Shown here one piece after another: positions 1 to 14,419 of a DNA stretch of 14,600 nt (position 1 is its first letter; each line of letters opens with the position of its first letter). The notes beneath the pieces were generated by a model. It did not search any database, was not told the DNA's origin, and worked only from the letters and a program-made list of their open reading frames with translations. The stretch lies in assembly GCA_031370645.1 (NCBI GenBank), contig JANMQV010000109.1, forward strand, positions 1 to 14,600. Reading direction: 5' to 3'. The position numbers were made by a program, and so were the translations under genes. The DNA comes from Candidatus Eiseniibacteriota bacterium. GTDB lineage: Bacteria; Eisenbacteria; RBG-16-71-46; SZUA-252.

Positions 1-206
1 CGTAACGCCGGGGCGAGGTTCGTCGTCGCCGCATCGTCAAAGAGTCCATCGTTCGTGAACTCGGGAGCCGCGGTGAGGCTGCCGGTGATGGCCGCTTCCT
101 CGCCGGTCGAGTGTGCCTGGGGGTTCACACCGTTGTTCGAACAGCCCGCCAGAACCGCCGCGGCTGCGAAGGTCAGGAGACACGATATATTCCGAATGGA
201 TTTCAT
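1..206 (-). CDS. Putative lipoprotein, N-terminal part (runs off the left edge of the window)
   Basis: Not in the ORF track because it is truncated. Manual translation from ATG at 206: MKSIRNISCLLTFAAAAVLAGCSNNGVNPQAHSTGEEAAITGSLTAAPEFTNDGLFDDAATTNLAPAL... Basic N-terminus, hydrophobic stretch and LAGC lipobox; purine-rich AGAGGG RBS upstream; no stop before the window edge. Confidence 0.85.
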   Translation of the reverse strand, partial: MKSIRNISCLLTFAAAAVLAGCSNNGVNPQAHSTGEEAAITGSLTAAPEFTNDGLFDDAATTNLAPAL

Positions 207-294
207 AAGTCCCTCTCTAGCAAGATGTTGCCGCACCGGTGGGCCGGCCCGCTTGTGCCATCCTGTGCCTGGCGCCGCTAACCATCAGAAGCAT

Positions 295-311
295 TGCAGA
301 GGCCGTGCCAG
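295..311 (-). promoter_or_regulatory. Putative sigma54 (-24/-12) promoter for the lipoprotein gene
   Basis: Minus strand reads CTGGCACGGCCTCTGCA versus consensus YTGGCACGRNNNTTGCW; exact GG-N10-GC spacing, one mismatch; intergenic and oriented toward ATG 206. Confidence 0.65.
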
Positions 312-373
312 CCTGGTGTACGATGGGGCTCCCCCCCGCACAACCGCTGCAGCCGTTCGATCGAAAGGACCCC

Positions 374-1339
374 GTGACCAGTTCCATTCGAGGCGTTATT
401 CGTCCGTTTCCTTTGCTGATTGCCGCACTCGCCGTTGCCGTTTCGCTCGTGTGCCTCCCTCGCGCCTTCGCCTCGAAACCGACTCCATCGAAGGTCACGT
501 CCAAGGTCACCTTCGAGGAGGCGAGCAAGCATTACCTCGCGAAGGAATGGGAGGCGTCCGCCGCCGCATTCGCCGAGATCGTGAAGGCGGAGCCGAGGAA
601 TGGCCGAGCCTGGTATCGCCTTGGCGTTTCGTACCAAAACTTGAAGGAGTACGACAAGGCGATCCCCGCCTATCGCACCGCCGAATCGATCGGGCACAAC
701 CCCGTCGTGATGTATAACCTTGCCTGCGCCTTTGCGCTCACGGGGGCCGCCGACAGTTCCTTCGCCTGGCTCGGGCGGGCCGCCGACGCCGGCTATAGCC
801 AGCCCGACGCGCTCACCTCGGACGAAGATCTCGCATCGATCCGCGGCGACGCCCGTTTTGTTGCGTTGGTCGATCGGCTGCAGCGCACCGCCACGCCCTG
901 CGCCTTCGCGCCCGAAGCGAGGCAATTCGACTTCTGGGTCGGAGCGTGGGATGTGCGGACGGCCACCGGCGATCTCGCCGGCACGAACGAGATCAAGACA
1001 GGCGCCGGAAAGTGCGTCTTGGTCGAGAACTGGAAGGACACGCAGGGAGGTTCCGGGCAGAGCCTCAACTTCTATGACTTCGATACGAAACGCTGGAATC
1101 AGATCTGGGTCGACGCGAATACGCAGGTGACGCGCTTCGAGGGTGCGTTCACCGACGGGGCGATGCGGCTTCAAGGAGAGCGGGTCATGAAGTCGGGCCA
1201 GAAGGTCCCCGTGAAGATGACGCTCACGCCGCTCCCGGACGGCCGCGTCCGTCAGATGGGCGAGTCGACCGCCGACGGCGGCAAGACTTGGAACGTCGAC
1301 TACGATCTCTACTACTCGCCGGCGCGTCGCGACGGCTGA
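374..1339 (+). CDS. Secreted tetratricopeptide-repeat protein with C-terminal DUF1579-like beta domain
   Basis: GTG at 374 follows AAAGGA RBS (364-369), in frame with ORF 239..1339. Signal peptide ending ..LPRAFA; TPR motifs (AWYRLGVSYQNLKEYDKAIPAYRTA; YNLACAFALTG...AFAWL..A...GY......D.DL.SIR.D.RF); C-terminal domain starting PC...PEARQFDFWVGAW and containing W.Q.WVD. Confidence 0.8.
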   Translation: MTSSIRGVIRPFPLLIAALAVAVSLVCLPRAFASKPTPSKVTSKVTFEEASKHYLAKEWEASAAAFAEIVKAEPRNGRAWYRLGVSYQNLKEYDKAIPAYRTAESIGHNPVVMYNLACAFALTGAADSSFAWLGRAADAGYSQPDALTSDEDLASIRGDARFVALVDRLQRTATPCAFAPEARQFDFWVGAWDVRTATGDLAGTNEIKTGAGKCVLVENWKDTQGGSGQSLNFYDFDTKRWNQIWVDANTQVTRFEGAFTDGAMRLQGERVMKSGQKVPVKMTLTPLPDGRVRQMGESTADGGKTWNVDYDLYYSPARRDG

Positions 1340-1355
1340 GTTGAAGGCGAGCTGG

Positions 1356-1388
1356 GGCGGGCCGCGGAATCGATCTCCGCGGCCCGCC
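1356..1388. terminator. GC-rich hairpin between convergent genes (possible bidirectional terminator or transcript end)
   Basis: Perfect 13-bp inverted repeat GGCGGGCCGCGGA-N7-TCCGCGGCCCGCC between the stops at 1339 (+) and 1402 (-); no U-tract on either side. Confidence 0.55.
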
Positions 1389-1401
1389 GCGAAGCCGCCC
1401 G

Positions 1402-1884
1402 CTACTGAATCGCGCCCTTCTTCCCCGCCATCCGCCGCAGAATCGCGATCTGCCCCGCGTGATACGCCTCGTGGAAGTGAAGGAAGTGAACCGCTTCCCT
1501 GGCCGTGCCGAAATTGGGGACCGTCTCGCTCCACTTCGCTTCGTCCGCCTTCGCGATGCCGTGCAGAAGCCGCTCCTGGGAGGTCGTGAGCGTTTCCATC
1601 AGTTTCGAGAATGGCATGCCGTCCCCCTTCGCCGCGCTCGCTTTCGTGACCGGAGCGCTTCCTCGCTTGTAGCGTTCGGCCATTTCGGGAGAGAGAACCG
1701 TCGGCTCACCGAGCAGACGAAGCATTCCCTCCCGCGACGCGAGGATGTGTCCGATGATCCAATTCATGCAGTTGCCGCCCGGCTCGGGCTGGATGAGCGC
1801 CTCCGTGTCGGTGATCCCCTCGGCGTTGGCACGAATCGCGTGAAGATTGATCTCGAACAGTTTCGTCAGAGTCGGGCCGCTCAT
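1402..1884 (-). CDS. DinB/YfiT-superfamily four-helix-bundle protein (putative metal-dependent thiol transferase or hydrolase), 160 aa
   Basis: ATG at 1884 preceded by GAAGGAG RBS. Motifs N.MNWIIGHIL and HEAYHAGQI..LRR..GK give the His triad typical of DinB_2 proteins. The upstream extension of the track ORF to 2733 overlaps another gene and is not protein-like. Confidence 0.9.
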   Translation of the reverse strand: MSGPTLTKLFEINLHAIRANAEGITDTEALIQPEPGGNCMNWIIGHILASREGMLRLLGEPTVLSPEMAERYKRGSAPVTKASAAKGDGMPFSKLMETLTTSQERLLHGIAKADEAKWSETVPNFGTAREAVHFLHFHEAYHAGQIAILRRMAGKKGAIQ

Positions 1885-1937
1885 CCAGGTCACTCCTTCA
1901 GGTAAGAGACGGTAGTTTGACGGGTGGTGGCGCGGCG

Positions 1938-2579
1938 CTAGGCGCCGGCCGGTTCCCAGCGGAGGATGTCGTCGGAAAGGGAGAGTCGATAACCCGGGTG
2001 CGCTTTGGCTAGTTGCAGGCGAAGATTCTCCGCGGAAGGATAGGCGCCCGTTCCGAGGAATCGAACGTCGTCCACCAGCACGACATCGCCGATTCGCCCG
2101 CGCGCGGCGATGGCGTCGATCTCCTCGCCTAGCGGCGTCTCCTTCGCTCCGTGCGCCGTTCCCACTCCGGAGTAGTGGCCGTCGAGCCAGAAGAGAATCG
2201 GCGACTCGATCCGGGCAAGGAGCGCCGGCAGAAGTGCCGCGCTGTCTCCCGTGTAGACGTGAATCCACGGCCATCGCCCGAGGCGGCGCGCCGCGCGCTC
2301 TGCCAGGCCCACGTCGAGCTCGATCGTGTGAATCTCGACGAACGCCTCTCGACACTTGCGCGACATCTCGCCCTCGAATGTGCCCGTCTCGACCAGGACC
2401 TCGATTCCGTGCCTCAGCGCATGCTCCAGCACCGCGCGTGTTTTGACCACATGAGGCGGAGGAATGGTTGGAGCCCGGCGATAGGCACTCCAATCGCGCG
2501 CGTCCTTCCACGACGACTTCATGGCGCGGAGCCGCTCGCGGACTTCCTCCGGTAGGAGCGCTGCTATGGCGGAGTTCAC
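1938..2579 (-). CDS. Class I SAM-dependent methyltransferase-like protein
   Basis: Motifs LVETGTFEG (motif I-like), IHTIEL, GDS, FWLDGHYS, VLVDDVR. Start chosen at GTG 2579 because it avoids overlap with the divergent gene and lies 7 nt from a TATACT; ATG 2522 is an alternative. Confidence 0.75.
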   Translation of the reverse strand: MNSAIAALLPEEVRERLRAMKSSWKDARDWSAYRRAPTIPPPHVVKTRAVLEHALRHGIEVLVETGTFEGEMSRKCREAFVEIHTIELDVGLAERAARRLGRWPWIHVYTGDSAALLPALLARIESPILFWLDGHYSGVGTAHGAKETPLGEEIDAIAARGRIGDVVLVDDVRFLGTGAYPSAENLRLQLAKAHPGYRLSLSDDILRWEPAGA

Positions 2580-2585
2580 GCCCCA

Positions 2586-2595
2586 GAGTATACTC
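2586..2595. promoter_or_regulatory. Palindromic -10 element GAGTATACTC, candidate bidirectional promoter
   Basis: TATACT on + at 2589-2594 is 7 nt before ATG 2602; TATACT on - at 2592-2587 is 7 nt before GTG 2579. It is the only AT-rich patch locally, and neither start has a convincing SD. Confidence 0.6.
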
Positions 2596-2601
2596 AAGTG
2601 C

Positions 2602-3069
2602 ATGATGAACGGACCGCGGGTATTGCTCGGCGGCCTCGCCGCCGGCGTGCTTCTCGTCGCGACCGGTGTGGGGCTCGGGCATGGCGTGCTGGGACCCGAG
2701 TACGTTCGCGCCTTCGCTTCGCATCGCGCGCATCCGGTCAACGTGATCACCGTCCTCGAGAATACCTCGCTTCGCCTCGCATACGGCTTTCTTGCCGTCT
2801 TCCTCTACGCCGCCATCCGCCCGCGCTTCGGCGCGGGACCGCGCACGGCGGTCATCGCGGCGCTCGTGCTCTGGCTCACCGCGCTTCTTCCACGCAATCT
2901 GCTGCTCTCGGAGTTCGGGATCCTGAACGGACGGCAGCTAGCGTTGAGCCTCGCCTACAGCGCGGCCGAGGTCGTCCTCGCCACGCTTGTAGGCGCCGCG
3001 ATCTATCGGGAGCGTTCCGCGATACCCGCTTCGAGGGGGGCGACGCCACGAGAGGGCGCGTCGGGATGA
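2602..3069 (+). CDS. Hypothetical integral membrane protein (about 4 TM segments), 155 aa
   Basis: Four hydrophobic segments; begins RVLLGGLAAG and contains LYAAIRPRFGAGPRTA and a GAAIYRE end motif; the stop overlaps the next start (ATGA). Start is ATG 2602 or 2605. Confidence 0.8.
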   Translation: MMNGPRVLLGGLAAGVLLVATGVGLGHGVLGPEYVRAFASHRAHPVNVITVLENTSLRLAYGFLAVFLYAAIRPRFGAGPRTAVIAALVLWLTALLPRNLLLSEFGILNGRQLALSLAYSAAEVVLATLVGAAIYRERSAIPASRGATPREGASG

Positions 3070-3773
3070 GGCCGAGCTGGAGATCGCTGCCGATCGTCCT
3101 GCTTCTTCTGTCTGGCGCCTGCGCCTCTTCGACCGAACAGCGCGCCGCGCTCGGTGCGCCCGACTCGCTGGGGCTTGTGCTCCTCGACTGCCAACTGAAA
3201 TTCGACTTCTTCGTCGATTCACGTCAGTTCGACACGAGCCTCACGATCGGGTTCGATCGACTCCGGCAGCCGATCGCCGCTCAGAGCGCGCTCTACTCCA
3301 GCGTCGACGACCCTCAGCATCTGATCCCGGCCAAACCGAATCGGGACCTTCTCCTCCTGGGGCCGCTCCGCCCGGGGATGTACTACCTGGAGCGAGTAGG
3401 CGCGGATCGTGAATTCATCGAGTCCTCCAGGACCTATCGCTCCGAAGTCGTGCGCGATCCGGTGGCCTTCAAGCCCGGCAGCGTCGGTACGAGTCGAATC
3501 GCGTTCGTTGTGGAACCCGGAGGGGTGACCTATATCGGTCGAATGAAGGCCGCGTGCGAGCTTAGGCTTCCCGAGGAGTACGACGGCCGCCTTTCCGATA
3601 CCATGATTCGCACGGCCTGGACCGCGGACGATCGGACCTGGAAAGTCACCTGGGACCGGGACGTTCAGAACGAGCTGGTGGCGTGGGAGAGAGTGATGGT
3701 CGGACTCAAGAAGACGGCTTGGCGGGAGCCGATCGCTAGACGGCTGGAATTCCTGCGCGCGCAGACGCCCTAG
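3066..3773 (+). CDS. Hypothetical lipoprotein, 235 aa
   Basis: ATGA overlap with the upstream gene; MRPSWRSLPIVLLLLSGAC lipoprotein-type signal; LRPGMYYL and F.VEPGGVTYIG patterns suggest a beta-sandwich. Confidence 0.7.
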   Translation: MRPSWRSLPIVLLLLSGACASSTEQRAALGAPDSLGLVLLDCQLKFDFFVDSRQFDTSLTIGFDRLRQPIAAQSALYSSVDDPQHLIPAKPNRDLLLLGPLRPGMYYLERVGADREFIESSRTYRSEVVRDPVAFKPGSVGTSRIAFVVEPGGVTYIGRMKAACELRLPEEYDGRLSDTMIRTAWTADDRTWKVTWDRDVQNELVAWERVMVGLKKTAWREPIARRLEFLRAQTP

Positions 3774-3838: not shown

Positions 3839-4504
3839 ATGAACCGAACCGTAGCGCGTCCCCTCATCGCAGTAGCGCTGATTCTGCTATCCATACTCAT
3901 GCGGCCATCCTCCCCGCTGGCGGCTCCGGCGACGGCTCCGTCCGCCGCAAAGCACGCCGCGACAAGACCCCTGGCCAAAGCGGTATTCGCCGCCGGCTGT
4001 TTTTGGTGTGCGGAGGCTTCGTTCGAGGGGCTTCCCGGGGTGAAGGCAGTCGTCTCGGGATACGCGGGTGGAACCGAGCAGAACCCCACGTACGAGCAGG
4101 TTGGCTCGGGGCGCACGGGACACGCCGAGTCGGTGGAGATTACCTTCGACCCGAGCGTGATGTCCTACACGAGGCTCCTCGATGTTTTTTGGCACAACAT
4201 CGATCCGACGCAAGCCAACGCGCAGTTCTGTGACCACGGGCGGCAATACCGGTCCGCGATCTTCACGGAGAACGAGTCGCAGCGACGGGCCGCCGTCGCG
4301 TCACGGAAACGCCTCGAGGCGTCGAACATTCTGAAGGCGCCCATCGTGACCGAGGTCACGCCGATCACGAAGTTCTGGCCGGCGGAGGCGTACCACCAGG
4401 ACTACTACAAGACGAACCCGATTCCCTACCAAGCCTACCGCCTCGGCTGCGGGCGGGACCGCCGCCTGCACGAGCTCTGGGGCGACGCGGCCGGGAAGCA
4501 CTAG
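3839..4504 (+). CDS. msrA: Peptide-methionine (S)-S-oxide reductase MsrA with N-terminal signal peptide
   Basis: Catalytic GCFWC motif, SGYAGG...NPTYEQV..G.TGHAE, QYRSAIF, AEAYHQDYY, C-terminal GCGRD cysteine; signal-like N-terminus followed by an Ala/Pro linker. Confidence 0.97.
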   Translation: MNRTVARPLIAVALILLSILMRPSSPLAAPATAPSAAKHAATRPLAKAVFAAGCFWCAEASFEGLPGVKAVVSGYAGGTEQNPTYEQVGSGRTGHAESVEITFDPSVMSYTRLLDVFWHNIDPTQANAQFCDHGRQYRSAIFTENESQRRAAVASRKRLEASNILKAPIVTEVTPITKFWPAEAYHQDYYKTNPIPYQAYRLGCGRDRRLHELWGDAAGKH

Positions 4505-4580
4505 TAGCGACTGCTCCACTCGGCGCCCCGGCACGAGGGGCTCCCCCAAACCTGCTACCGACGGACCACTCGTTGTCCCC

Positions 4581-4607: not shown

Positions 4608-4626
4608 CAGACAGGAGTGTGCCGAC

Positions 4627-7332
4627 ATGCCGATTCCCGTTCCGACCTACGAGCCGCACAAAATCAAGACCGTCCGCCTCGTCTCGTTCCCCACCCCCGA
4701 GGAGCGGAAGCGCCATCTTGCGGCCGCCCACTTCAACACGTTCAATCTGACGCCCACGCAGGTGAATTTCGACCTCACGTCGTACGGCACCAGCGCCGTC
4801 ACGCAGGAGCAGCACGCGGGCGAGATGGTGGGCGACGAGGCATACGCCGGGGCGCGGAATTTCGAGAACCTGGAGCGCGCCGTGAATCGCGTGCTCGGCC
4901 ACACCTACGTCTGCCCGACGCACAACATCCTTGGCTGCCTGAAGCTGGTCGTCGCCACGATGGTTCCCGCGGGAGCCACCGTCGCGAGCAACTCGCAGTG
5001 GCTCGCCGACGTGCTGGCGCCTCGCTCGATTGCCGTGGCCGACGTTCGCTCGCAGGAGGAGGCCCTCTTCACGGGAAATGTGGATCTGGAACGCCTTCGC
5101 GGCGCGCTGGCCGGCGGAGCGATCGCGCTGATCGAACTTCAGGCGTTCGCCGACGGCATGCACCCCTTCAGCCTCGCGAATCTCAAGGCGGTCCGCGCGC
5201 TGGCCGACCAGCGCGGGATTCGTTTGGCGCTCGACGGCTCGCGGCTCATCGAGAACGCCTGGTACATCCAGCGCCACGAGCCGGGGATGTTGGACCGTCC
5301 CGTGGCGGATCTGGTGAAGCAGATGGTCAAGACGGCGCACGTTCTTCTCCTGGACGGAGCGCAGGATCCGAAAGGCGCGAACGGCGGCATCCTCACGACC
5401 GATCATCCGGGGGACCACGAGAAGTTCGTGAACGAGGTCGTAATCTACGAAGGCCTCCACACCTACGGCGGCATGTCGGGGAGAACCATGGAGGTCTTCG
5501 CGCGCGGCATCGAGGAAATGTGCGACGAAGCCGAGGTGCAGTGGGCCATGCATGAGAGCGAGCAGTTCACGGCGCGCCTCCGCGAAGCGGGCATTCCGCT
5601 GGAGCGTGGCTGTGACGGCGCCTATCTGGAAGCCGACAAATTCCTCCCCCACCTGAGCATCTTTCCGGCCCATGCGTTGGCGTGCGCGCTCTACCAGACG
5701 AGCGGAGCGCGAGCGTTGGTGCCGGGCATGGTGGGCCGGAATCATTATCTTCCGATCCAAGTCCCCCGCCTCGCCATGACGACGTGGCAGTTGAATCAGG
5801 TGGTGGAAGCGATCGTGAATCTCTGGAAGCAGCGCGACCTCATCGCGCCGCTCGAGTTGCAGACCGGCGGCGATTGGAACGACGAGCTCCGCTTCCGTTC
5901 GGTGTTCGCGGCGATCACGCCCTACGAATTCGACTGCTACCCGTTCGTCGTCCACACGGTGGAGCGGATTCCGACCACGACGGCCGAGCATCGGCACCGG
6001 GCGATCCGCGAGGCCGGCTACAACACCTTCCTCCTTCGCTCCGCCGACGTGACGATCGATCTTCTGACCGACTCCGGCACCTCCGCGATGAGCACCGACC
6101 AGTGGGCGGCGTACGAAGCGGCCCGTGCCACCGCCGCCACGAGCGACGCCTATGGCCGCTTCGTGGACGTGATTCGCGAAGCGTACGGGTACGAGCATGT
6201 GATTCCGACCCACCAGGGCCGCGCGGCCGAGCACATCTTGAGTCAGACGCGCATTCGCCCCGGACAGTGGGTACCGGGGAACATGTACTTCACCACCACG
6301 AAAGTGCATCAGGAACTGGCGGGCGGCATCTTCGTCGACGTGATCGTCGACGCGGCTCACGACCCGCAGAACGACTTCCCCTGGAAAGGCAATATCGACC
6401 TCGCCAAGTTGAAGGGAGTGATCGACGAGCACGGCGCCGCGAACGTGGCGTATGTCTCCTTCGAGCACTCCGTCAACATGGCCGGCGGCCAGCCGGTCAG
6501 CATGGACAACATGCGCGAGGTCTACGGCATGTGCAGCCCGCTCGGCGTGCCGGTCTTCTTCGACGCCACGCGCGCGGTGGAGAACGCCTATTTTATCCAG
6601 AAGCGCGATCCGCGCTACGGCCACGTCCACATCCGCGACATCCTGCGCGAGATGATGATGTACGGCGACGGCTGCACGGTCTCGGGGAAGAAGGATTTCC
6701 TCGTGAACATCGGCGGGCTACTGGCGTTCAAGGAGAATGCCGAGTGGAAGAAGGAAGCCGAAGCGATGCTCCGGGTCTACGAAGGCGGGCGCGCCGACGG
6801 CGGTCTCGCGGCGTCGGATCTGGCCGCTATGGCCCGGGGAGTGGAAGAGATGCTGGATGATCGCTACATTCGAACGCGCGTCGAGCAGTCGGCGTTTCTC
6901 GGCCGGCTCCTCTCGGATGCCGGCGTGCCGATCGTCCAACCCTCCGGCAGTCACGCCATCTTCATCGACGCGAAGCGCTTCCTACCGCACGTCGATCAAG
7001 ACGAGTACCCCGCGCAGCGGCTGGCGGCTGAGATCTACCTGGAAACGGGTGTCCGGGTGATGGAGCGGGGGAATGTTTCCAAGGGACGCGACTCCAAATC
7101 GGGGAAGAACTACCGCCCGGCGCTCGAGTTGGTGCGGCTGACAATTCCTAGGCGGGTCTACACGAACGACCACATGCGCGCGGTGGCGGATGGCATCATC
7201 CGGGTTTGGAAGCGGCGGGATTCGATCCGCGGATTGGCGTTCGTCTACGAGCCGCCGATGCTCCGATTCTTCCAAGGGCGCTTCGCCCCGCTGGAAGAAG
7301 TGACGGCCGCGGTGGAGACGGCAACCGTCTAG
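4627..7332 (+). CDS. tpl: Double-length (tandem-domain) tyrosine phenol-lyase-like beta-eliminating lyase, 901 aa; N-half degenerate, C-half with intact PLP site
   Basis: ATG 4627 after AGGAG RBS. Two full tryptophanase/TPL-family copies (about 4627-5940 and 5941-7332). The C-half has IDLLTDSGT, THQGRAAE, GNMYFTTT, VNMAGGQPVSM, DATR, SGKKD..VNIGG, GVRVMERG, VRLTIPRRVYT and LRFF..RF, which are TPL-type signatures. Confidence 0.9.
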   Translation: MPIPVPTYEPHKIKTVRLVSFPTPEERKRHLAAAHFNTFNLTPTQVNFDLTSYGTSAVTQEQHAGEMVGDEAYAGARNFENLERAVNRVLGHTYVCPTHNILGCLKLVVATMVPAGATVASNSQWLADVLAPRSIAVADVRSQEEALFTGNVDLERLRGALAGGAIALIELQAFADGMHPFSLANLKAVRALADQRGIRLALDGSRLIENAWYIQRHEPGMLDRPVADLVKQMVKTAHVLLLDGAQDPKGANGGILTTDHPGDHEKFVNEVVIYEGLHTYGGMSGRTMEVFARGIEEMCDEAEVQWAMHESEQFTARLREAGIPLERGCDGAYLEADKFLPHLSIFPAHALACALYQTSGARALVPGMVGRNHYLPIQVPRLAMTTWQLNQVVEAIVNLWKQRDLIAPLELQTGGDWNDELRFRSVFAAITPYEFDCYPFVVHTVERIPTTTAEHRHRAIREAGYNTFLLRSADVTIDLLTDSGTSAMSTDQWAAYEAARATAATSDAYGRFVDVIREAYGYEHVIPTHQGRAAEHILSQTRIRPGQWVPGNMYFTTTKVHQELAGGIFVDVIVDAAHDPQNDFPWKGNIDLAKLKGVIDEHGAANVAYVSFEHSVNMAGGQPVSMDNMREVYGMCSPLGVPVFFDATRAVENAYFIQKRDPRYGHVHIRDILREMMMYGDGCTVSGKKDFLVNIGGLLAFKENAEWKKEAEAMLRVYEGGRADGGLAASDLAAMARGVEEMLDDRYIRTRVEQSAFLGRLLSDAGVPIVQPSGSHAIFIDAKRFLPHVDQDEYPAQRLAAEIYLETGVRVMERGNVSKGRDSKSGKNYRPALELVRLTIPRRVYTNDHMRAVADGIIRVWKRRDSIRGLAFVYEPPMLRFFQGRFAPLEEVTAAVETATV

Positions 7333-7341
7333 GCGGCCACC

Positions 7342-8120
7342 CTAGCCGGCGGAACCATCCCCGCTCTGGGCGGGCCGTCGTCCGTGCGTGAGCGACGCTC
7401 TCAAGAAGTCGCGATTCAAGCGGGCGATATTCGAGACGCTGATCTCCTTCGGGCAGGACGTCTCACACTCGCCGTGATTCGTGCAGGCTCCGAAGCCCTC
7501 CGCGTCCATCTGCGCCACCATGCGGCGCACACGCTCTTCCCGCTCGGGCTGCCCCTGGGGCAGGAGCGCCAGGTGCGACACCTTCGCCGCCGTGAAGAGC
7601 ATGGCCGAGGCGTTCGGGCAGGCGGCCACGCAGGCGCCGCAGCCAATGCAGGCGGCGGCGTCCATCGCGAGCTCAGCGTTTTCCTTCCGCACGGGTAGAG
7701 CATTCGCGTCCTGCGCGCTTCCGACGTTCGCGGAGATATAGCCTCCGGCCGCAATGATGCGATCGAACGCGCTCCGATCCACCACGAGATCGCGAAGCAC
7801 CGGAAATGCGCCCGCTCGCCACGGCTCGATCGTGACCGATTCTCCGTCGCGGAACGACCGCATGTGCAACTGACAGGTGGTCGTGGCCTTTTTCGGTCCG
7901 TGCGGCGCCCCGTTGATCACGACCCCGCACATGCCGCAGATACCCTCGCGGCAGTCGTGGTCGAAGGCGATCGGGTCCTCCCCTTTCGCGGTCAGCCGCT
8001 CGTTCACGACGTCGAGCATTTCCAGGAACGACGTGTCGGGGCTGACATCGGAGGCCGGATAGGTGATGAACTTCCCCGGCTCCTTCGCGCTCTTCTGCCG
8101 CCAGACGTGGAGCGTCAGGT

Positions 8121-8124
<4 letters not shown>
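7342..8124 (-). CDS. sdhB: Succinate dehydrogenase/fumarate reductase iron-sulfur subunit
   Basis: [13 protein letters not shown]...TTC ([2Fe-2S]), [12 protein letters not shown] and [12 protein letters not shown] cluster motifs; start overlaps the sdhA stop (ATGA). Confidence 0.96.
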
Positions 8125-10034
<1,910 letters not shown>

Positions 10035-10049
10035 GGTCGCGATTCCCCG

Positions 10050-10712
10050 CTAGCGGATAAATCCAATGAGCACGGCGATCGGAAACGAGATATTCCCCAG
10101 GACGACCACGGCCGTGATCGTCACAGCGAACGCATGCCGGAGCGGATTCCACCGCGGATGCGAGAGTCCGAGCGTCTGAAGCATGCTCCAAACGCCGTGA
10201 TGGAGGTGCAGCCCAAGGCAGAGCATCGCAAGAATATAGAACGCCGAAACCGGCACCACGCGGAAGCCGGAGACAAAGTTGTGATAGACGTCTCCCTCCA
10301 CGAAGTTCGGATGGAGGTTGCCCGTCGTGAAATGAAGGAGGTGATAGATGATGAAGAGCGCAAGGATCGGCCCCGACCAGACCATCGTCCGAGAGGCGTA
10401 GGTCGACTCTTCCCAGCGCCGCTTGCGATATTCAACAGGGCGCGCTTTCCGATTTTCGACGGTGAGGGCGACCGCGGCCCAGATGTGGAGGATGACCGCG
10501 AGAAGCAGGACGCCGCGGGCGATCCAAAGTCCGGCGCCGTGGAGGAGTTCGCGGAGCCAGAGCCCGTAGGCGTTGAGGGACTCCGGCCCGACATAGGCTT
10601 GGAGGTTGCCGATCATGTGAACGACAACGAAGCCGAAGAGGATCAGGCCGGTGACTGCCATGACGGCTTTCTTGCCGACGGTTGCGTCGAGGAACGGTAC
10701 CGCGCGGGGCAT
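10050..10712 (-). CDS. sdhC: Succinate dehydrogenase cytochrome b subunit (single 5-TM b558-type anchor)
   Basis: GKKAVMAVTG, HMIGN, LHIW, YHLLHF and HLHHG heme-ligand histidines in five TM helices; first gene of sdhCAB; GGAG RBS before ATG 10712. Confidence 0.93.
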   Translation of the reverse strand: MPRAVPFLDATVGKKAVMAVTGLILFGFVVVHMIGNLQAYVGPESLNAYGLWLRELLHGAGLWIARGVLLLAVILHIWAAVALTVENRKARPVEYRKRRWEESTYASRTMVWSGPILALFIIYHLLHFTTGNLHPNFVEGDVYHNFVSGFRVVPVSAFYILAMLCLGLHLHHGVWSMLQTLGLSHPRWNPLRHAFAVTITAVVVLGNISFPIAVLIGFIR

Positions 10713-10772
10713 TCAATCTCCCGGGTCGTCCAAAGAGGCACGCGATTCGGCGAAGCGACGAATCAGCCACAC

Positions 10773-10801
10773 ATTCTACTGCGCCCGGCCGCCGGGAGCA
10801 A
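10773..10801 (-). promoter_or_regulatory. Putative sigma70-type promoter of sdhCAB
   Basis: Minus strand TTGCTC (10801-10796)-17 bp-TAGAAT (10778-10773), about 60 nt upstream of the sdhC ATG. Confidence 0.6.
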
Positions 10802-10860
10802 GTCGGAGCACCCCCCGCGTTAAGGCGTGGCGCGATTCGACCTAAGGATTAGCAGGCATG

Positions 10861-10893
10861 AAAACGCGCGGCCCCTTTGGGAGGTCGCGCGTT
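10861..10893 (-). terminator. Rho-independent terminator of the FG-GAP protein gene
   Basis: Minus strand AACGCGCGACCTCCCAAAGGGGCCGCGCGTTTT: GC-rich stem followed by a T-tract, about 35 nt after the stop at 10927 and upstream of the sdh promoter. Confidence 0.7.
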
Positions 10894-10926
10894 CGTTCGG
10901 CGCCTCGTTCCACCGGCAGCGGGCGG

Positions 10927-13833
10927 TTACCTGAGGATCGTGAACCGCCCCGTCTCGGTCAGCCCCGCGCCCTCGATCCGGTAGAAGTAGACGCCGGAGC
11001 GAAGCGCCCGACCCGACGCGTCTTTCCCGTCGATTCGTGCCTCCTGCGAGCCGGGGACCGTGGCTCTCGCGTTCCAAACCGAGCGAACCAGACGGCCGCT
11101 CACGTCGAAAAGCCGGATCGTGACGGCGCCGGGGGCCTTGGCGGTGAATCGAAGTGTGCCCTCGGGATTCAGCGGATTCGGCTCGACTCTAGCGGCAATC
11201 GCGCCGCTTCCCTTCCCGATAATGGGAATGGTGAATCGGGAACAGAAGCGGCGTCCATCCGTGAGACCACCTTCCAGACGAACGGGCACCTCCTGCTTGC
11301 CGCGAAGAAGCGAGAAGAGCGCGGAGGCATCGGACATCGCGAAGCAGGCCGGATATTCAGGCACATCGTTCTTGTCCGAATCGCCGATGACCGCCGATTT
11401 CGCCATGGTCGCCGAGATCTCCGAAACGCTCCCCGTGCCCATGGAGACGAGTCGGAGGGTAGTCGGATCGATATCACCCGGCGTGAACCCGCCGTCGAGC
11501 GCCTCAAGGCGAACGCACATCGTCCCCGACGACTGCGCCGCCGGAATCGCGCGCTGGGACTGCGAGGTGAAAGCGCGCGCCAGTGCTTGGGGGGTTGATG
11601 GCGTGTTGTTTAAGACAGTGGTGAGGCCCCCCGCTGTGACGACATCGGGGCGGCCATCTGCATTCAGATCCGCGAACAAGACATCGGTAGAACCTATTCC
11701 CGCTGCGATTGGTGCCGATAGTGCAAACGCTCCTGAACCGGTCCCGAGCAGGACCTGAAAACTTGACGCTTCGAGTGCGACCAGCAAATCGAGATGACCA
11801 TCGCCGTTCCAATCTCCCGACACGGCCTCGTACCCATACGGGCTGGACGCACCCTGAAGAGCCGCGTCGAATCCACCAGCTGAATTTCCTGTCAGGATTA
11901 CGAGGGAACCAGTCGTGTACGACCTCGTGGCGGCGATGTCGAGAATACCGTCCTCATTCCAATCCCCCGTCACGAGGCCGTATCCGGAGCCACCGGGCCA
12001 AATCGAGCGCTCTGATCCGAAGGTTCCATCACCGAATCCGTAGAACACGCGCACATCTCGAGCCTGCGAAAGGATGAGATCGAGTCGCCCGTCGCGATCA
12101 AGATCTCCGATCGCGAGGTCGAACTCGGCTTCTCCAGAGATCACTTTGTGAATGGGGCCGGGGAGTTGGCCGGAGGCGCCCATGAGTACGGCAATCTCTG
12201 TGCTCAACCCGCACGCAACTAGGTCCGCGACGCCATCGGAGTTCAGATCGCCTGCCCGAATTTCGTTGAGGCTATGAATCTCGTCGTAGGCCGTGGCTTC
12301 GCTGAATGTCCCGTCACCGTGCCCCCAATAGAGGAGGAGAGGCGCTCCAACAAAGGATCCGATTGCCAGATCCGCGTGTCCGTCGCCATTCCAGTCGGCG
12401 CTTTCGGCCACCCAGTACAAATCTCCCACCTGTCGCTCCCAAGCGAGTGCGAGACTACCGGCCCCATCTCCTAGAAACACGGCGACTCGGGAAGGACCAC
12501 TTTCATTTACGCTCGCGACATCTACCTTGCCGTCCTCGTTGAAGTCGGCCGAGGCGAGGCCTGAAGGATTGGCTCCGAACTGCCTCACCATCGGCGAGGG
12601 GGGTGCGGAACCCGGCAAGACATCCAGGTGGACCTGGAGGCGGGCCTCCCCATCACGCGATACCGCTCCGATCTCCAAGTTGTAACTGCCCGCATCGCAT
12701 ATCCCCGGACGGAGCCATATGCGCCCCGCGGTCGAGGAGGGGCCGCTACCGTAGCTGGCAAGTTCCGCGAAGTCAGGGCCCGAAACGATTCGGAACGTAG
12801 CCGGATCGCCGTCGGAGTCCGTGGCCACGAGAGGAAGCGACGCGACGGTTCCGACGACGACTCGAACGGGCGCTACCGCGCGAAGCGCCGGGGCATGGTC
12901 CGACCCGGTCTGTATCTCGATGTGGAGCAGGGTGGTCGAAGTGTGAAAACCGTCGGAGGCGGAGACGGTGACATCATGCGAACCTGCGTCGCCACGAAGC
13001 GGGAACGCATGAACACGGAGGGCCGAGTTGCCGGGGCTCGACGTGAGTCGGGCAACTCTCACAAACCCGGGGGCGCCTCCGACGGAGAGCGTGAGCAGGT
13101 CGCCGTTCGCATCCGTCGCGGCGAAATCCGCCGAGCCGGGCTCACCTGTCCTCACGACGAGACTGGCGGGCCCGGAAACCAGGGGAGCATCGCCGGCACC
13201 GCCGCCGGCGGAATAGCCGAGTCCATCCGCGTCGAACCAGTCACTTCCAAGCTTTTGTGTATTGTCATAGTCGTTACCCTCGCACCGCGAGCCGAACGAG
13301 GTCAGCGAGTAGGCGAAGATCGTAGGCGCGCTCGGAACGATCTCGATCGACGGGGAACCCGACGCGACAGTGATTTCGATCTGCGCCAGCAAGTAGTCCC
13401 CGGGCGCCATCAAGGTTCCGGCATAGCCGATGTAGTACTCCTGGGCATTTCCCTGATTCCCGAATTTAGTCCCCATCGTGACCATGAGGTTGGTCGCGTT
13501 CGAAAAGACTACGCTTCCACCGACGGCTCGAAGGGATGCTTCATAGGAGTTGATGGTGTACTCCGCGCCTGAGGGGCAAATCGCGTCGGAGCCGTCCCGT
13601 CGTTTGTTCGTGCGAAGGTAGATCTTTGCCTGCGTCGTCCCGGTCGCGGTGATCACGTCCGCGGCGGTGTGCACACCGTCACCGTTCGAGTCGAGGTACA
13701 TGTACTGCGCCTGGACCGGAACTGCGGTGAGCAGTGGCCCGATAACGACGGCAGCGACGACGAGATGAGCAGGGAGTGACGAGGCTGAGAAACGGAAGTT
13801 CGCGAAACGCCGGAGATATTTTGTGGGCAGCAT
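10927..13833 (-). CDS. Large secreted protein: N-terminal domain, two Ig/cadherin-like repeats, seven FG-GAP/VCBS repeats, C-terminal FlgD-Ig/T9SS-sorting-like domain (968 aa)
   Basis: ATG 13833 after AAAGGGG RBS; signal peptide ending VQA/QYMYLDSNGDG; two ATD..GD repeats; seven DxN/DxDGxxD motifs (DFNEDGKVD, DWNGDGHAD, DLNSDGVAD, DLDRDGRLD, DWNEDGILD, DWNGDGHLD, DLNADGRPD); tail PNPLNP...LFDVSGRLVR...SGVYFYRI...GRFTILR. Confidence 0.88.
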   Translation of the reverse strand: MLPTKYLRRFANFRFSASSLPAHLVVAAVVIGPLLTAVPVQAQYMYLDSNGDGVHTAADVITATGTTQAKIYLRTNKRRDGSDAICPSGAEYTINSYEASLRAVGGSVVFSNATNLMVTMGTKFGNQGNAQEYYIGYAGTLMAPGDYLLAQIEITVASGSPSIEIVPSAPTIFAYSLTSFGSRCEGNDYDNTQKLGSDWFDADGLGYSAGGGAGDAPLVSGPASLVVRTGEPGSADFAATDANGDLLTLSVGGAPGFVRVARLTSSPGNSALRVHAFPLRGDAGSHDVTVSASDGFHTSTTLLHIEIQTGSDHAPALRAVAPVRVVVGTVASLPLVATDSDGDPATFRIVSGPDFAELASYGSGPSSTAGRIWLRPGICDAGSYNLEIGAVSRDGEARLQVHLDVLPGSAPPSPMVRQFGANPSGLASADFNEDGKVDVASVNESGPSRVAVFLGDGAGSLALAWERQVGDLYWVAESADWNGDGHADLAIGSFVGAPLLLYWGHGDGTFSEATAYDEIHSLNEIRAGDLNSDGVADLVACGLSTEIAVLMGASGQLPGPIHKVISGEAEFDLAIGDLDRDGRLDLILSQARDVRVFYGFGDGTFGSERSIWPGGSGYGLVTGDWNEDGILDIAATRSYTTGSLVILTGNSAGGFDAALQGASSPYGYEAVSGDWNGDGHLDLLVALEASSFQVLLGTGSGAFALSAPIAAGIGSTDVLFADLNADGRPDVVTAGGLTTVLNNTPSTPQALARAFTSQSQRAIPAAQSSGTMCVRLEALDGGFTPGDIDPTTLRLVSMGTGSVSEISATMAKSAVIGDSDKNDVPEYPACFAMSDASALFSLLRGKQEVPVRLEGGLTDGRRFCSRFTIPIIGKGSGAIAARVEPNPLNPEGTLRFTAKAPGAVTIRLFDVSGRLVRSVWNARATVPGSQEARIDGKDASGRALRSGVYFYRIEGAGLTETGRFTILR

Positions 13834-13876
13834 GGTGCTGAGACCCCTTTCCCATCTTGTAGGGCGCGTGTGGGCG

Positions 13877-13940
13877 GAGGTGTCCAGCAGCGCCCTGGAC
13901 ACTCGACGGGAAACCCCGGGGGGGAGGGATGGGTCCCGTC
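13877..13940 (-). other. Two adjacent stem-loops in the upstream region of the FG-GAP gene
   Basis: GTGTCCAG (13880-13887)/CTGGACAC (13895-13902) and GACGGGA (13905-13911)/TCCCGTC (13934-13940) inverted repeats lie back to back, 45-105 nt upstream of the ATG. Confidence 0.45.
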
Positions 13941-14082
13941 AGAGGTGAACGGAGAAGTTGGGCAATCCGAACTTGATGCCGCTACAAAGGTAGGCCCGCC
14001 GCTCGCCCAAAAGCAATGGTCCTTCGGCGGAACCGGCTGGAGCCCCTTGCCTTGCAGCGGGATCGGTCGGGAGCCTCTGGGG

Positions 14083-14406: not shown

Positions 14407-14419
14407 GAGCGGCGTCTCC

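What the first reader, a model, noticed from the sequence alone, without database searches (positions are those of the whole stretch)
4627..7332. Fused tyrosine phenol-lyase pseudo-dimer with reciprocal degeneration of the two halves
Seen: one uninterrupted 901-aa ORF holding two TPL/tryptophanase copies. The N-half has lost the residues that act within a subunit: SGKKD becomes DGAQD (5353-5367, PLP Lys to Gln), THQGR becomes THNIL, DLLTDSGT becomes DLTSYGT, YFTTT and MERG are absent, and VRLTIPR becomes LPIQVPR. It keeps GDEAYAG (4831-4851) and YEGLHTYGG (5446-5472). The C-half is the mirror image: PLP Lys (6691-6693) and all intra-subunit motifs are intact, but GDEAY becomes ARATA (6121-6135) and YEG..TYGG becomes YEGGRADGG (6778-6804). 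Established: in TPL and tryptophanase the active site is built by two subunits; the general-acid Tyr (Tyr71, Citrobacter freundii TPL numbering), the cation ligand Glu69 and the 288-291 loop come from the partner subunit. Inference: neither half works alone; together they form one complete active site plus one dead site, an obligate split-function enzyme/pseudoenzyme fusion. Automated annotation would just call it tryptophanase, and I do not know of a characterised example.
Basis: partly seen in the sequence, partly recalled or inferred. Interest (0 to 1): 0.9.

Follow-up and report, generated by a model that had tools for sequence, protein, structure and literature searches.

The report
Fused two-half tyrosine phenol-lyase, one site
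One gene joins two copies of the vitamin-B6 enzyme tyrosine phenol-lyase, and each copy has kept only the active-site parts that the other has lost, so the chain should build a single working site; the design is common in uncultured bacteria and I found no paper that describes it.

Summary
ORF 4627-7332 (+) encodes 901 aa with two beta-eliminating-lyase halves (26% identical to each other). The C-half (about 435-886) is a near-canonical tyrosine phenol-lyase (TPL). It has the PLP lysine and the cofactor- and substrate-binding residues, but lacks the residues a TPL subunit lends to its partner (Glu69, Tyr71, Tyr291 equivalents). The N-half is the reverse: Gln replaces the PLP lysine, while GDEAYAG and EGLHTYGG are kept.

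In 257 fused homologues from many phyla, the N-half keeps the Tyr71 equivalent in 254 and the C-half keeps the lysine in 257. An AlphaFold2 model (pLDDT 92.8, pTM 0.90) and a two-chain prediction (0.92 against 0.00 for controls) pack the halves like a TPL catalytic dimer.

Best reading: a single-chain pseudo-heterodimer with one live composite site and one dead site. No experiment backs this.

Three limits:
- The architecture is not unprecedented. The glycine decarboxylase P-protein has it, including Gln at the lost lysine.
- The loss of the second site maps to essentially one ancestral event. Cyanobacterial fusions keep both lysines.
- The C-half alone scores below NCBI's TPL equivalog cut-off.

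This scan has noted the same family at least 8 times on other genomes. Nine literature searches found no description.

The parts
4613..4617 (+). Shine-Dalgarno-like AGGAG, 9 nt before the ATG
   Evidence: Read directly.
4627..7332 (+). Whole gene: 901 aa plus stop, a fused double tyrosine phenol-lyase-like protein
4627..5928 (+). N-half (residues 1-434): TPL-like fold that lacks its own cofactor and substrate residues; the pseudoenzyme half
   Evidence: E 2e-57 to TPL 9j3u; 26% identity to the C-half.
4831..4851 (+). GDEAYAG (residues 69-75). Glu71 is the TPL Glu69 equivalent and Tyr73 is the Tyr71 (general acid) equivalent. This segment is donated in trans to the C-half site.
   Evidence: Alignment. 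Tyr73 is present in 121 of 121 close homologues and in 254 of 257 fused proteins. Residues 70-77 lie in the predicted interface, and Glu71 touches C-half 484, 485 and 694.
5353..5367 (+). DGAQD (residues 243-247), in place of SGKKD. Gln246 (5362-5364) sits where the PLP lysine should be.
   Evidence: Gln is present in 120 of 121. Over 257 fused proteins the position is Q 200, E 33, K 16.
5446..5472 (+). YEGLHTYGG (residues 274-282). Leu277 is the Met288 equivalent and Tyr280 is the Tyr291 equivalent. This is the second partner-donated loop.
   Evidence: EGLHTYGG is invariant in 121 of 121. The Tyr291 equivalent is present in 255 of 257. Residues 272-278 and 282-287 lie in the predicted interface.
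5854..5940 (+). Junction (residues about 410-438): the degenerate C-terminal tail of the N-half (ELRFRSVF in place of LRFFxxRF) runs straight into the N-terminal arm of the C-half, with no added linker
   Evidence: pLDDT is 90-96 across these blocks.
5929..7329 (+). C-half (residues 435-901): the catalytic TPL-like half
   Evidence: E 4e-160 to 1c7g; TM 0.98, rmsd 1.7 A to 1c7g_A.
6121..6135 (+). ARATA (residues 499-503), in place of GDEAY. Both the Glu69 and Tyr71 equivalents are lost (Ala501, Ala503).
   Evidence: alignment. Never Tyr in 121 of 121. Tyr in only 13 of 257.
6208..6222 (+). THQGR (residues 528-532): phosphate-binding segment that includes the Arg100 equivalent
   Evidence: 121 of 121.
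6280..6300 (+). NMYFTTT (residues 552-558): Phe123 and Thr124 equivalents
   Evidence: 121 of 121.
6682..6696 (+). SGKKD (residues 686-690). Lys689 (6691-6693) is the PLP lysine (Lys257 equivalent).
   Evidence: 121 of 121 and 257 of 257.
6778..6804 (+). YEGGRADGG (residues 718-726). The Met288 and Tyr291 equivalents are lost (Gly721, Asp724).
   Evidence: Over 257 fused proteins the Tyr291 position is D 197, S 34, N 16, Y 2.
7060..7071 (+). MERG (residues 812-815): Met379 and Arg381 equivalents
7132..7152 (+). VRLTIPR (residues 836-842): Arg404 equivalent, Arg837 (carboxylate binding; the role is recalled)
7267..7272 (+). Phe881-Phe882: Phe448 and Phe449 equivalents

Best explanation
The gene encodes a single-chain pseudo-heterodimeric tyrosine phenol-lyase. 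The two halves fold like two TPL subunits and pack against each other like a TPL 'catalytic dimer'.

Of the two composite active sites that such a dimer normally has, only one survives. The C-half supplies the PLP lysine (Lys689), the cofactor ligands and the tyrosine-binding pocket (Thr556, Met812, Arg814, Arg837, Phe881). The N-half supplies in trans the general-acid tyrosine (Tyr73), the cation-site glutamate (Glu71) and the 274-282 loop (Leu277, Tyr280).

The other site has lost its parts on both sides: N-half Lys to Gln246, and C-half Glu, Tyr and Tyr to Ala501, Ala503 and Asp724. The most likely reaction is L-tyrosine to phenol + pyruvate + ammonium, with one PLP per chain.

Shown here: the sequence pattern, its conservation, the fold and the predicted packing. 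Inferred: the activity, the substrate, the PLP stoichiometry and intrachain (rather than interchain) N:C pairing.
For: 1. Homology and residues. The C-half aligns with TPL 1c7g over residues 435-886 (E 4e-160). The model superposes on it with TM 0.98 and rmsd 1.7 A. The N-half matches TPLs at E 2e-57.

2. Conservation. In 121 sequences (68-100% identical to the window protein), N-half G69, D70, E71, Y73, A74 and G75 are invariant (A72 in 118 of 121), N-half EGLHTYGG is 121 of 121, Gln246 is 120 of 121, C-half Lys688-Lys689 is 121 of 121, and the C-half Tyr71 position is never Tyr. In 257 fused proteins from three searches and 35 genome loci, the N-half has the Glu69 equivalent in 255, Tyr71 in 254 and Tyr291 in 255. 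The C-half has Lys257 in 257 and Tyr71 in only 13.

3. The N-half is not decaying. Its mean pairwise identity is 70%, against 78% for the C-half, over 7260 pairs. Among 54 diverse sequences its invariant residues include G69, D70, E71, Y73, A74, G75 and E275, G276, Y280, G281, G282, G285, R286.

4. Specificity. PMC5805759 (passages) lists five residues that separate TPL from tryptophan indole-lyase: Thr124, Met288, Met379, Arg381 and Phe448. The C-half has the four that come from the PLP-bearing subunit in 241 of 257 proteins.

5. Trans donation. In P. vulgaris tryptophan indole-lyase, Tyr-72* comes from the other chain of the catalytic dimer (PMC11301627, passages). TPL Tyr71 is the proton donor (PMC10170061 and PMC9262865, passages).

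6. Packing. AlphaFold2 of the whole chain gives pLDDT 92.8 and pTM 0.90. The two-chain prediction (C-half + PLP against N-half) scores 0.92, and the best of 3 controls scores 0.00. That mark was reached by 58 of 80 solved complexes and 2 of 110 mismatched pairs. The runs share at least 97% of contacts and the partner pLDDT is at least 93. N-half Glu71 touches C-half Gly484, Thr485 and Asn694. Solved TPL dimers exist, so this pass may come from memory. My own alignment and a ligand were used, so the calibration counts hold only roughly.

7. Evolution. TPL-type C-halves form one clade (19 rows, support 100) inside single-domain TPL-like proteins, and the N-half topology mirrors it. Fused proteins that keep both lysines (P0280, P0281) are sister to the one-site clade.
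Against: Nothing has been assayed: no activity, PLP content or structure exists for any member.

The C-half alone scores 632 bits on NCBIfam TIGR02618, below the equivalog cut-off of 720.7. The whole protein passes (865 bits) only because the two halves add up.

The partner-donated Met288 position is Leu in 242 of 257 proteins, not Met, so substrate preference may differ from canonical TPL.

Loss of the N-half lysine maps to about 2 changes on the tree, so its association with loss of the C-half tyrosine (both kept 12, Lys only 4, Tyr only 1, neither 240) is essentially one event and carries no independent statistics.

I could not obtain model coordinates, so the Tyr73-to-PLP distance was not measured. 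Tyr280 and Lys689 are not in the listed interface residues.

Intrachain and interchain N:C pairing cannot be told apart.

The partner-subunit origin of Glu69, Met288 and Tyr291 in TPL is recalled, not read in a paper here.
Confidence: 0.75

Rival explanations
1. The C-half is an autonomous enzyme that pairs C:C between two chains. It catalyses reactions that do not need the general-acid tyrosine, such as beta-elimination of substrates with good leaving groups. The N-half is only a structural or solubility domain.
For: The C-half keeps every cis residue. A Y71F TPL still forms quinonoid intermediates (title of PDB 2ycn). I recall, without a source read here, that Y71F keeps activity on good leaving groups.
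Against: This does not explain why GDEAYAG and EGLHTYGG, the segments that only matter in trans, are the most conserved parts of the N-half. It also does not explain why the C-half keeps the full tyrosine-specific pocket (241 of 257). The predictions pair N with C.
Confidence: 0.08
2. The live site is real, but the substrate is not (or not only) L-tyrosine. It could be another aromatic or substituted amino acid, or the enzyme could work mainly in the synthetic direction.
For: The C-half alone is below the TPL equivalog cut-off (632 against 720.7). The donated Met288 position is Leu, and the neighbouring residues are His-Thr rather than Pro-Ser. There is no conserved neighbourhood pointing to phenol catabolism.
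Against: Thr124, Met379, Arg381, Phe448, Phe449 and Arg100 are all canonical. The TPL model is by far the best NCBIfam hit (632 bits against 407-439 for the tryptophanase equivalogs). Single-domain TPL-like genes in Bacteroidota also carry YEGLHTYGG.
Confidence: 0.15
3. Besides lending residues, the dead pocket of the N-half has become a binding site for an effector or for non-covalent PLP, making the N-half a regulatory subunit. This would add to the main reading rather than replace it.
For: Residues of the dead pocket are themselves conserved: Asp203 121 of 121, Arg206 121 of 121, His99-Asn100 121 of 121, Asp243 121 of 121, Gln246 120 of 121. Authors of a GLDC study predict non-covalent PLP in the analogous Gln-bearing N-terminal pocket (PMC7259800, passages).
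Against: The Phe123 equivalent that stacks on PLP is deleted, and the Arg100, Arg381 and Arg404 equivalents are replaced. The conserved residues may be kept only for the fold.
Confidence: 0.15
4. The fusion is an assembly or gene-calling artefact: two adjacent genes read as one, or a pseudogene.
For: The genome is a fragmented metagenome-type assembly (247 contigs). Adjacent but separate tnaA-like and TPL-like genes do exist in other phyla.
Against: The frame is uninterrupted. The same roughly 890-930-aa architecture recurs in hundreds of independent assemblies, including contigs of over 1 Mb. Both halves are conserved.
Confidence: 0.01

Closest known systems
Tyrosine phenol-lyase (EC 4.1.99.2; Citrobacter freundii and Erwinia herbicola enzymes, PDB 2ez1, 1c7g)
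   Same: The C-half has the same fold (TM 0.98), about 52-53% identity, the PLP lysine, Asp214, Arg217, Arg100, Phe123, Thr124, Met379, Arg381, Arg404 and Phe448/449. The composite site still uses a Tyr71-type residue from a second TPL-like unit.
   Different: Canonical TPL is a homotetramer of identical subunits of about 456 aa, with four equivalent sites. Here two diverged units (26% identical) are one chain. Only one of each pair of sites is intact. The trans-donated Met288 is Leu. The C-half alone misses NCBI's equivalog cut-off.
Glycine decarboxylase P-protein (GLDC/GcvP): a single chain of over 1000 aa, or alpha/beta subunits in some bacteria and archaea
   Same: It is a fold-type I PLP enzyme made of two tandem homologous halves. 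Only the C-terminal half carries the PLP lysine, and the N-terminal fold has Gln at the lysine position (PMC7259800, passages). The window protein's N-half likewise has Gln246.
   Different: It is not related beyond the superfamily: no GcvP family appears. The reaction is different (decarboxylation with the H-protein). No split two-gene form of the fused TPL was seen here. This looks like an independent origin of the same architecture.
Tryptophan indole-lyase (tryptophanase, EC 4.1.99.1; PDB 1ax4, 2c44)
   Same: It is the sister family, with the same catalytic-dimer logic. Tyr-72* from the partner chain is shown in crystal structures (PMC11301627). Many databases label the fused proteins 'tryptophanase'.
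   Different: The C-half lacks the indole-lyase signature residues and has the TPL ones instead (PMC5805759). The tryptophanase equivalogs score 407-439 bits against 632 for TPL. The genome has a separate single-domain tryptophanase-like gene.
Heteromeric PLP enzymes with one lysine-less subunit, e.g. eukaryotic serine palmitoyltransferase LCB1/LCB2 (recalled, not checked here)
   Same: A lysine-less paralogue pairs with a catalytic one and contributes to a single interface active site.
   Different: These are separate polypeptides from a different family, and are membrane-associated. The comparison rests on my recall only.

Membership tests
Pfam PF01212 Beta_elim_lyase | Profile match above the gathering score | tested here: met
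   302 bits against a cut-off of 27, in two stretches.
Tyrosine phenol-lyase (NCBIfam TIGR02618 equivalog) | Score above the curated equivalog cut-off (720.7 bits) | tested here: not met
   The whole protein scores 865.4 bits, but as the sum of two stretches. The C-half alone scores 632.2 and the N-half alone 238.4. TPL is still the best-scoring model.
Tyrosine phenol-lyase | PLP-binding Lys257 with Lys256, Asp214 and Arg217 in one unit | tested here: met
   C-half Lys688, Lys689, Asp646 and Arg649; 257 of 257 for Lys257. Not met in the N-half, which has Gln246.
Tyrosine phenol-lyase | TPL-specific pocket residues Thr124, Met379, Arg381 and Phe448 (PMC5805759) | tested here: met
   C-half Thr556, Met812, Arg814 and Phe881. 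The signature is present in 241 of 257 fused proteins.
Tyrosine phenol-lyase | Met288 contributed to the site (TPL-specific according to PMC5805759) | tested here: not met
   The residue available in trans is N-half Leu277 (Leu in 242 of 257, Met in 15). The C-half's own position is Gly721.
Tyrosine phenol-lyase | General-acid Tyr71 (with Glu69) available to the PLP site from a partner unit | tested here: met
   N-half Glu71 and Tyr73, present in 255 and 254 of 257. Residues 70-77 are in the predicted interface and Glu71 touches C-half 484, 485 and 694. Both residues are absent from the C-half itself.
Tyrosine phenol-lyase | Homotetramer of identical subunits of about 456 aa, with four equivalent sites | tested here: not met
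   The protein is a 901-aa chain of two halves that are 26% identical. Its oligomeric state could not be tested.
Tyrosine phenol-lyase | Catalyses L-tyrosine to phenol + pyruvate + NH3 | not testable with these tools
   This needs an enzyme assay.
Tryptophanase (NCBIfam TIGR02617 / NF053783 equivalogs) | Score above the equivalog cut-offs (825.8 and 750) | tested here: not met
   The C-half scores 407.2 and 438.7 bits. Only the broad subfamily NF009709 is passed (552 against 285).
Glycine decarboxylase P-protein (as a family, not as an analogy) | Sequence membership in GcvP families | tested here: not met
   No GcvP family appears among the Pfam or NCBIfam hits. No P-protein chain appears among the listed structural matches, although a long model can miss such matches.
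P-protein-like architecture (single-chain pseudo-heterodimer of fold-type I halves) | Two tandem homologous halves; the lysine only in the C-terminal half; the N-terminal half retained and conserved | tested here: met
   compared with the PMC7259800 passages.

The most novel reading that the evidence does not exclude
This would be an independent, convergent re-invention of the glycine-decarboxylase P-protein design inside the TPL family, down to the same Lys-to-Gln replacement in the silent pocket. Extant cyanobacterial fusions with two lysines would be living intermediates of the path from a two-site to a one-site enzyme. The strongly conserved dead pocket of the N-half (Asp203, Arg206, His99-Asn100, Asp243, Gln246) would not be mere scaffold: it would bind a ligand (non-covalent PLP or an effector) that controls the single live site.
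Probability: 0.2. Interest if true: 0.75.

Novelty: new variant of a known kind. Interest (0 to 1): 0.6.

Why it matters
TPL is a textbook PLP enzyme and an industrial catalyst for L-DOPA and tyrosine analogues. Every characterised member is a homotetramer.

A widespread natural single-chain form with one composite site offers three things:
- A natural test of which residues act in trans.
- A clean system for half-of-sites and asymmetry questions, because each half can be mutated separately. That is not possible in a homo-oligomer.
- A second, independent example next to the P-protein of how a symmetric fold-type I dimer becomes an enzyme/pseudoenzyme fusion, with relatives that still have two lysines.

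It also matters for annotation. These genes are labelled simply 'tryptophanase' or 'tyrosine phenol-lyase', and they pass the TPL equivalog cut-off only because two halves are summed.

Tried and rejected
- **Coordinates of the AlphaFold2 model.** They were not available to scripts, so the Tyr73 to Lys689/PLP distance could not be measured.
- **Whole-model structural search against chain representatives** (VIA-align wide). I hoped for a two-half match to a P-protein chain. Only single-half matches were listed (best 8sbg_A, Z 54.8). This says nothing about the arrangement.
- **Conserved gene neighbourhood.** All-against-all BLAST of ORFs from the window and 32 fused loci found no neighbour family shared beyond close relatives. 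A tnaA-like gene lies directly upstream in a few genomes.
- **Natural split two-gene forms.**
  - L041, L043, L044, L045, L047, L051 and L054 looked split by ORF length. In the two I read (L041, L054) they are two intact adjacent enzymes.
  - P0128 is a truncated fusion.
  - P0246 ends in what looks like a frameshifted tail.
  - Split pieces in G034 and G115 lie on different contigs.
  - I did not run a dedicated 'shorter' search, so split forms are not excluded.
- **Independent-contrast test** of N-half Lys against C-half Tyr. Only 2 informative pairs were available, so no significance is possible.
- **Origin of the N-half.** In the tree, N-halves fall outside all single-domain sequences. With long, fast-evolving branches this may be an artefact, so I do not claim a donor.
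- **First MAFFT run** timed out. It was repeated with faster settings.
- **PMC2662015** (TPL quinonoid structures) is not held. The partner-subunit origin of Glu69, Met288 and Tyr291 in TPL therefore stays recalled.
- **Literature.** Nine searches, plus passages of PMC3870968, gave no description of a fused TPL. Supplements are closed, and subscription journals are mostly not held.
Full report
**1. The observation**

The stretch 4627-7332 (+) translates into one uninterrupted protein of 901 residues. A longer ORF starts at a TTG at 4573. The ATG at 4627 is the likelier start: AGGAG sits 9 nt upstream and the closest homologue starts with the same residues.

Pfam finds Beta_elim_lyase (PF01212) twice. 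Against solved structures:
- Residues 435-886 align end to end with tyrosine phenol-lyase (TPL) of Erwinia herbicola (1c7g, E 4e-160) and Citrobacter freundii.
- Residues 8-408 also match TPLs best (9j3u, E 2e-57).
- The two halves are only 26% identical to each other.

The alignment fixes the numbering. C-half position minus 432 gives the TPL number up to about residue 703, and minus 433 after that. Lys689 is therefore Lys257, Ala503 is Tyr71, Ala501 is Glu69 and Asp724 is Tyr291. In the N-half, Glu71 is Glu69, Tyr73 is Tyr71, Gln246 is Lys257, Leu277 is Met288 and Tyr280 is Tyr291.

**2. Is the pattern conserved?**

A search limited to proteins of 495-1577 aa gave 1250 hits at E <= 1e-3 among 7998 scored candidates. 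The best 120 are all 887-934 aa long, 68-92% identical, and cover 98-100% of the query. Their sources name them only 'tyrosine phenol-lyase' or 'tryptophanase'.

In an alignment of these 120 plus the query:
- N-half G69, D70, E71, Y73, A74 and G75 are invariant (A72 in 118 of 121); EGLHTYGG is 121 of 121; Gln246 is 120 of 121.
- C-half Lys688-Lys689, THQGR, NMYFTTT, MERG and FF are 121 of 121.
- The C-half Tyr71 position is Pro, Ser, Ala, Thr or Val, never Tyr. The Tyr291 position is Asp in 118.

An exhaustive HMMER search of 50%-identity representatives gave 11 further full-length fused clusters among the best 150 hits, at 36-51% identity. All 12 sequences viewed (the query plus these 11) have GDEAYAG in the N-half.

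I then pooled three sets:
- the fused proteins;
- ORFs of 840-960 aa from 35 genome loci;
- I dropped shorter or partial ORFs, the unfused loci, and L072, whose C-half was incomplete.

I aligned each half to an HMM built from single-domain relatives. Over 257 fused proteins:
- The N-half has the Glu69 equivalent in 255, Tyr71 in 254 (2 Phe, 1 gap) and Tyr291 in 255 (2 Cys).
- The N-half lysine position is Gln in 200, Glu in 33 and Lys in 16.
- The C-half has the lysine in 257 of 257 and Tyr at the Tyr71 position in 13.

This sample is built around the query and P0131. It is not a random sample of the family.

**3. The N-half is maintained, not decaying**

Mean pairwise identity over 7260 pairs is 70% for the N-half and 78% for the C-half. 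Among 54 diverse sequences, 13 of the 25 invariant N-half residues lie in two places: 69-75 (all but Ala72) and 275-286. In TPL-family enzymes these two segments act on the partner's site.

**4. What is established about those segments**

- TPL Lys257 binds PLP. Tyr71 is the general acid and proton donor to C-gamma. Arg381 and Thr124 hold the phenol hydroxyl (PMC10170061 and PMC9262865, passages).
- In Proteus vulgaris tryptophan indole-lyase, the homologous Tyr-72* is seen in crystal structures to come from the other chain of the catalytic dimer (PMC11301627, passages).
- Five residues separate indole-lyases from phenol-lyases: Thr124, Met288, Met379, Arg381 and Phe448 in TPL (PMC5805759, passages).
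- I recall that Glu69 completes the cation site of the neighbouring subunit and that Met288 and Tyr291 come from the neighbour. I could not read the source.

**5. Packing of the halves**

AlphaFold2, given a 54-sequence alignment, yields mean pLDDT 92.8 and pTM 0.90 for the whole chain. The junction (residues 410-440) is confident at 90-96. The C-half superposes on 1c7g_A with TM 0.98 and rmsd 1.7 A.

A two-chain prediction (C-half with PLP, N-half as the partner) scored 0.92 in each of three runs, against 0.00 for the best of 3 controls.
- That mark was reached by 58 of 80 solved complexes and 2 of 110 mismatched pairs.
- The runs agree in at least 97% of contacts, and the partner pLDDT is at least 93.
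- Among the most confident contacts are N-half Glu71 with C-half Gly484, Thr485 and Asn694. These are the Gly52/Asn262 and Glu69 equivalents of the recalled TPL cation site.
- N-half 70-77, 272-278 and 282-287 face the C-half. The mirror-image C-half segments 500-507 and 716-731 face N-half 38-55 and 99-103.

Solved TPL dimers exist, so this pass shows likeness to them and may come from memory. My own alignment and a ligand were used, so the calibration counts hold only roughly. I had no coordinates, so no Tyr73 to PLP distance can be given.

**6. Mechanism proposed**

N:C pairing gives two interface sites.
- **Site A** is complete. It consists of the C-half lysine, cofactor ligands and tyrosine pocket, plus N-half Glu71, Tyr73, Leu277 and Tyr280.
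- **Site B** has lost residues on both sides: N-half Lys to Gln, Arg100 to Leu, Phe123 deleted and Arg404 replaced, and C-half Glu69, Tyr71 and Tyr291 to Ala, Ala and Asp.

N:N or C:C pairing would give no complete site at all. That is a further argument for N:C pairing.

The likely reaction is tyrosine beta-elimination. The C-half carries Thr124, Met379, Arg381 and Phe448 in 241 of 257 proteins, and TPL is its best NCBIfam model.

Two cautions apply.
- The C-half alone scores 632 bits, below the TPL equivalog cut-off of 720.7. The whole-protein 'pass' at 865 bits is the sum of two halves.
- The donated Met288 position is Leu. Single-domain TPL-like genes in Bacteroidota also carry YEGLHTYGG, so this may be ordinary variation.

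**7. Evolution and distribution**

In a tree of 81 halves and single-domain relatives, TPL-type C-halves form one clade (19 rows, support 100) nested among single-domain TPL-like proteins. The N-halves sit outside on longer branches, with a topology that mirrors the C-halves. This fits one old fusion followed by faster change in the N-half. The deep placement of the N-halves may be a long-branch effect.

A second fused lineage, mostly from cyanobacteria (P0131, P0272-P0279, and also P0135, P0137, P0138, P0284), keeps lysines in both halves. It usually also keeps the C-half Tyr71, and its C-half pocket is not the TPL one.

P0280 and P0281 keep both lysines and have a fully canonical C-half, but carry Phe and Cys at the N-half Tyr71 and Tyr291 positions. 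They are sister to the whole one-site clade.

Keeping the N-half lysine and keeping the C-half tyrosine go together: both 12, Lys only 4, Tyr only 1, neither 240. On the tree this reduces to about 2 changes of the lysine state, so it counts as one event and is no statistical proof.

Fused genes occur in metagenome-assembled genomes (MAGs) labelled Eisenbacteria (the closest named, 74-75% identical), Acidobacteriota, Gemmatimonadota, Planctomycetota, Myxococcota, Gammaproteobacteria, Bacteroidota, Chloroflexota and Nitrospirota.

In a sample of 201 genomes of the window's own phylum (45 further matches were not listed):
- 23 show a full-length fused match and 8 more show partial pieces.
- All 8 genomes of the window's genus are among them, one of them in two pieces.
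- Most of the rest show only a single-domain match.

**8. Context**

Upstream on the same strand lies msrA (3839-4504). Downstream on the other strand lies a succinate dehydrogenase/fumarate reductase-like operon (7342-10712). No neighbour is conserved across the window and 32 fused loci. A single-domain tryptophanase-like gene lies directly upstream of the fused gene in L010, G052 and G054. In the window's genome the corresponding gene lies on another contig. This fits a role in aromatic amino-acid breakdown but proves nothing.

**9. Comparison with what is known**

As an enzyme, the protein is closest to TPL. As an architecture, it is closest to the glycine decarboxylase P-protein.

A GLDC study describes the P-protein as unusual among fold-type I enzymes in being either one chain of over 1000 aa or an alpha/beta pair. 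Its N-terminal fold lacks the lysine and carries a glutamine there (PMC7259800, passages). The window protein shows the same design and the same replacement, but has no sequence membership in the P-protein families. It is therefore an analogue of independent origin, not a member.

I found no paper describing a fused TPL or tryptophanase. This rests on searches, and passages of PMC3870968. Supplements are closed, and most subscription journals are not held.

**10. Earlier notes of this scan**

The same family was reported at least 8 times on other genomes, with the same reading. One of those reports was later marked 'part of it fell', without saying which part. That led me to test the universal claims. 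The results are the exceptions listed in section 7 and the equivalog cut-off result in section 6.

**Verdict**

- It is a new variant of a known kind: TPL chemistry in a P-protein-like single-chain pseudo-heterodimer.
- Confidence in the mechanism is 0.75 and interest is 0.6.

Noticed in passing
G000 contig C105, locus L002:1372-2865 (-): The window's own genome also encodes a canonical single-domain tryptophanase-like protein of 497 aa (GDESYAG, SAKKD, EGFPTYGG, LRHFTA). The organism therefore has both a one-unit indole-lyase-like enzyme and the fused TPL.
   Followed up: partly
L010:7974-9377 and 9379-12066; G052:C59:19147-20541 and 20543-23215; G054:C1:1005631-1006998 and 1007008-1009677: In some relatives a single-domain tryptophanase-like gene lies directly upstream of the fused gene on the same strand, with gaps of 1-9 nt. 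This suggests an operon for aromatic amino-acid breakdown. It is not the case in this window.
   Followed up: partly
L041:7764-9362 and 9375-10754; L054:7959-9362 and 9426-10868: Bacteroidota loci that looked like split versions are two intact adjacent genes: a tryptophanase-like gene followed by a complete TPL-like gene. The TPL-like gene also carries YEGLHTYGG, the loop sequence of the window's N-half.
   Followed up: yes
Proteins P0131, P0272-P0279, P0135, P0137, P0138, P0284: A second lineage of roughly 900-aa fusions, named mostly from cyanobacteria, keeps the PLP lysine in both halves and usually keeps the C-half Tyr71. Its C-half pocket is not the TPL one (Arg381 to Val/Leu/Ile; Phe448-Phe449 mostly to Ala-Thr). 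These may be two-site enzymes of unknown specificity.
   Followed up: partly
Proteins P0280, P0281 (944 and 927 aa): These are sister to the one-site clade. The C-half is a fully canonical TPL with its own GDEAYAG. The N-half keeps its lysines but has Phe and Cys at the Tyr71 and Tyr291 positions, which is the mirror image of the window protein's division of labour.
   Followed up: partly
window 7342-10712 (-): Three genes look like a succinate dehydrogenase/fumarate reductase operon: an iron-sulfur subunit (7342-8124), a flavoprotein (8121-10034) and a membrane cytochrome b-like subunit (10050-10712). The iron-sulfur gene is also the downstream neighbour in the Eisenbacteria locus L009.
   Followed up: no
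window 10927-13902 (-), 1402-2733 (-), 3839-4504 (+): Three further ORFs were annotated by Pfam: a 991-aa protein with FG-GAP repeats and a FlgD-Ig-like C-terminus, a 443-aa protein with a C-terminal DinB_2 domain, and MsrA. Several long ORFs had no Pfam hit: 1-717 (+), 2598-3773 (+), 13870-14448 (+) and 278-1534 (-). In this G+C-rich DNA some of them may be spurious.
   Followed up: no
Proteins P0168 (3002 aa), P0171 (1552 aa), P0247 (1036 aa): TPL-like domains are embedded in very long proteins. These are probably PKS/NRPS-type assembly lines of the kind described in PMC3870968, and are related to the thiocysteine lyase domain 9cen seen.
   Followed up: no
Whole-protein NCBIfam score, window 4627-7332: The fused protein passes the TPL 'equivalog' cut-off only because the scores of two halves are added (865 bits against 632 and 238 for the halves). 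Automated pipelines will therefore name such proteins as plain TPL, for a reason that has nothing to do with equivalence.
   Followed up: yes
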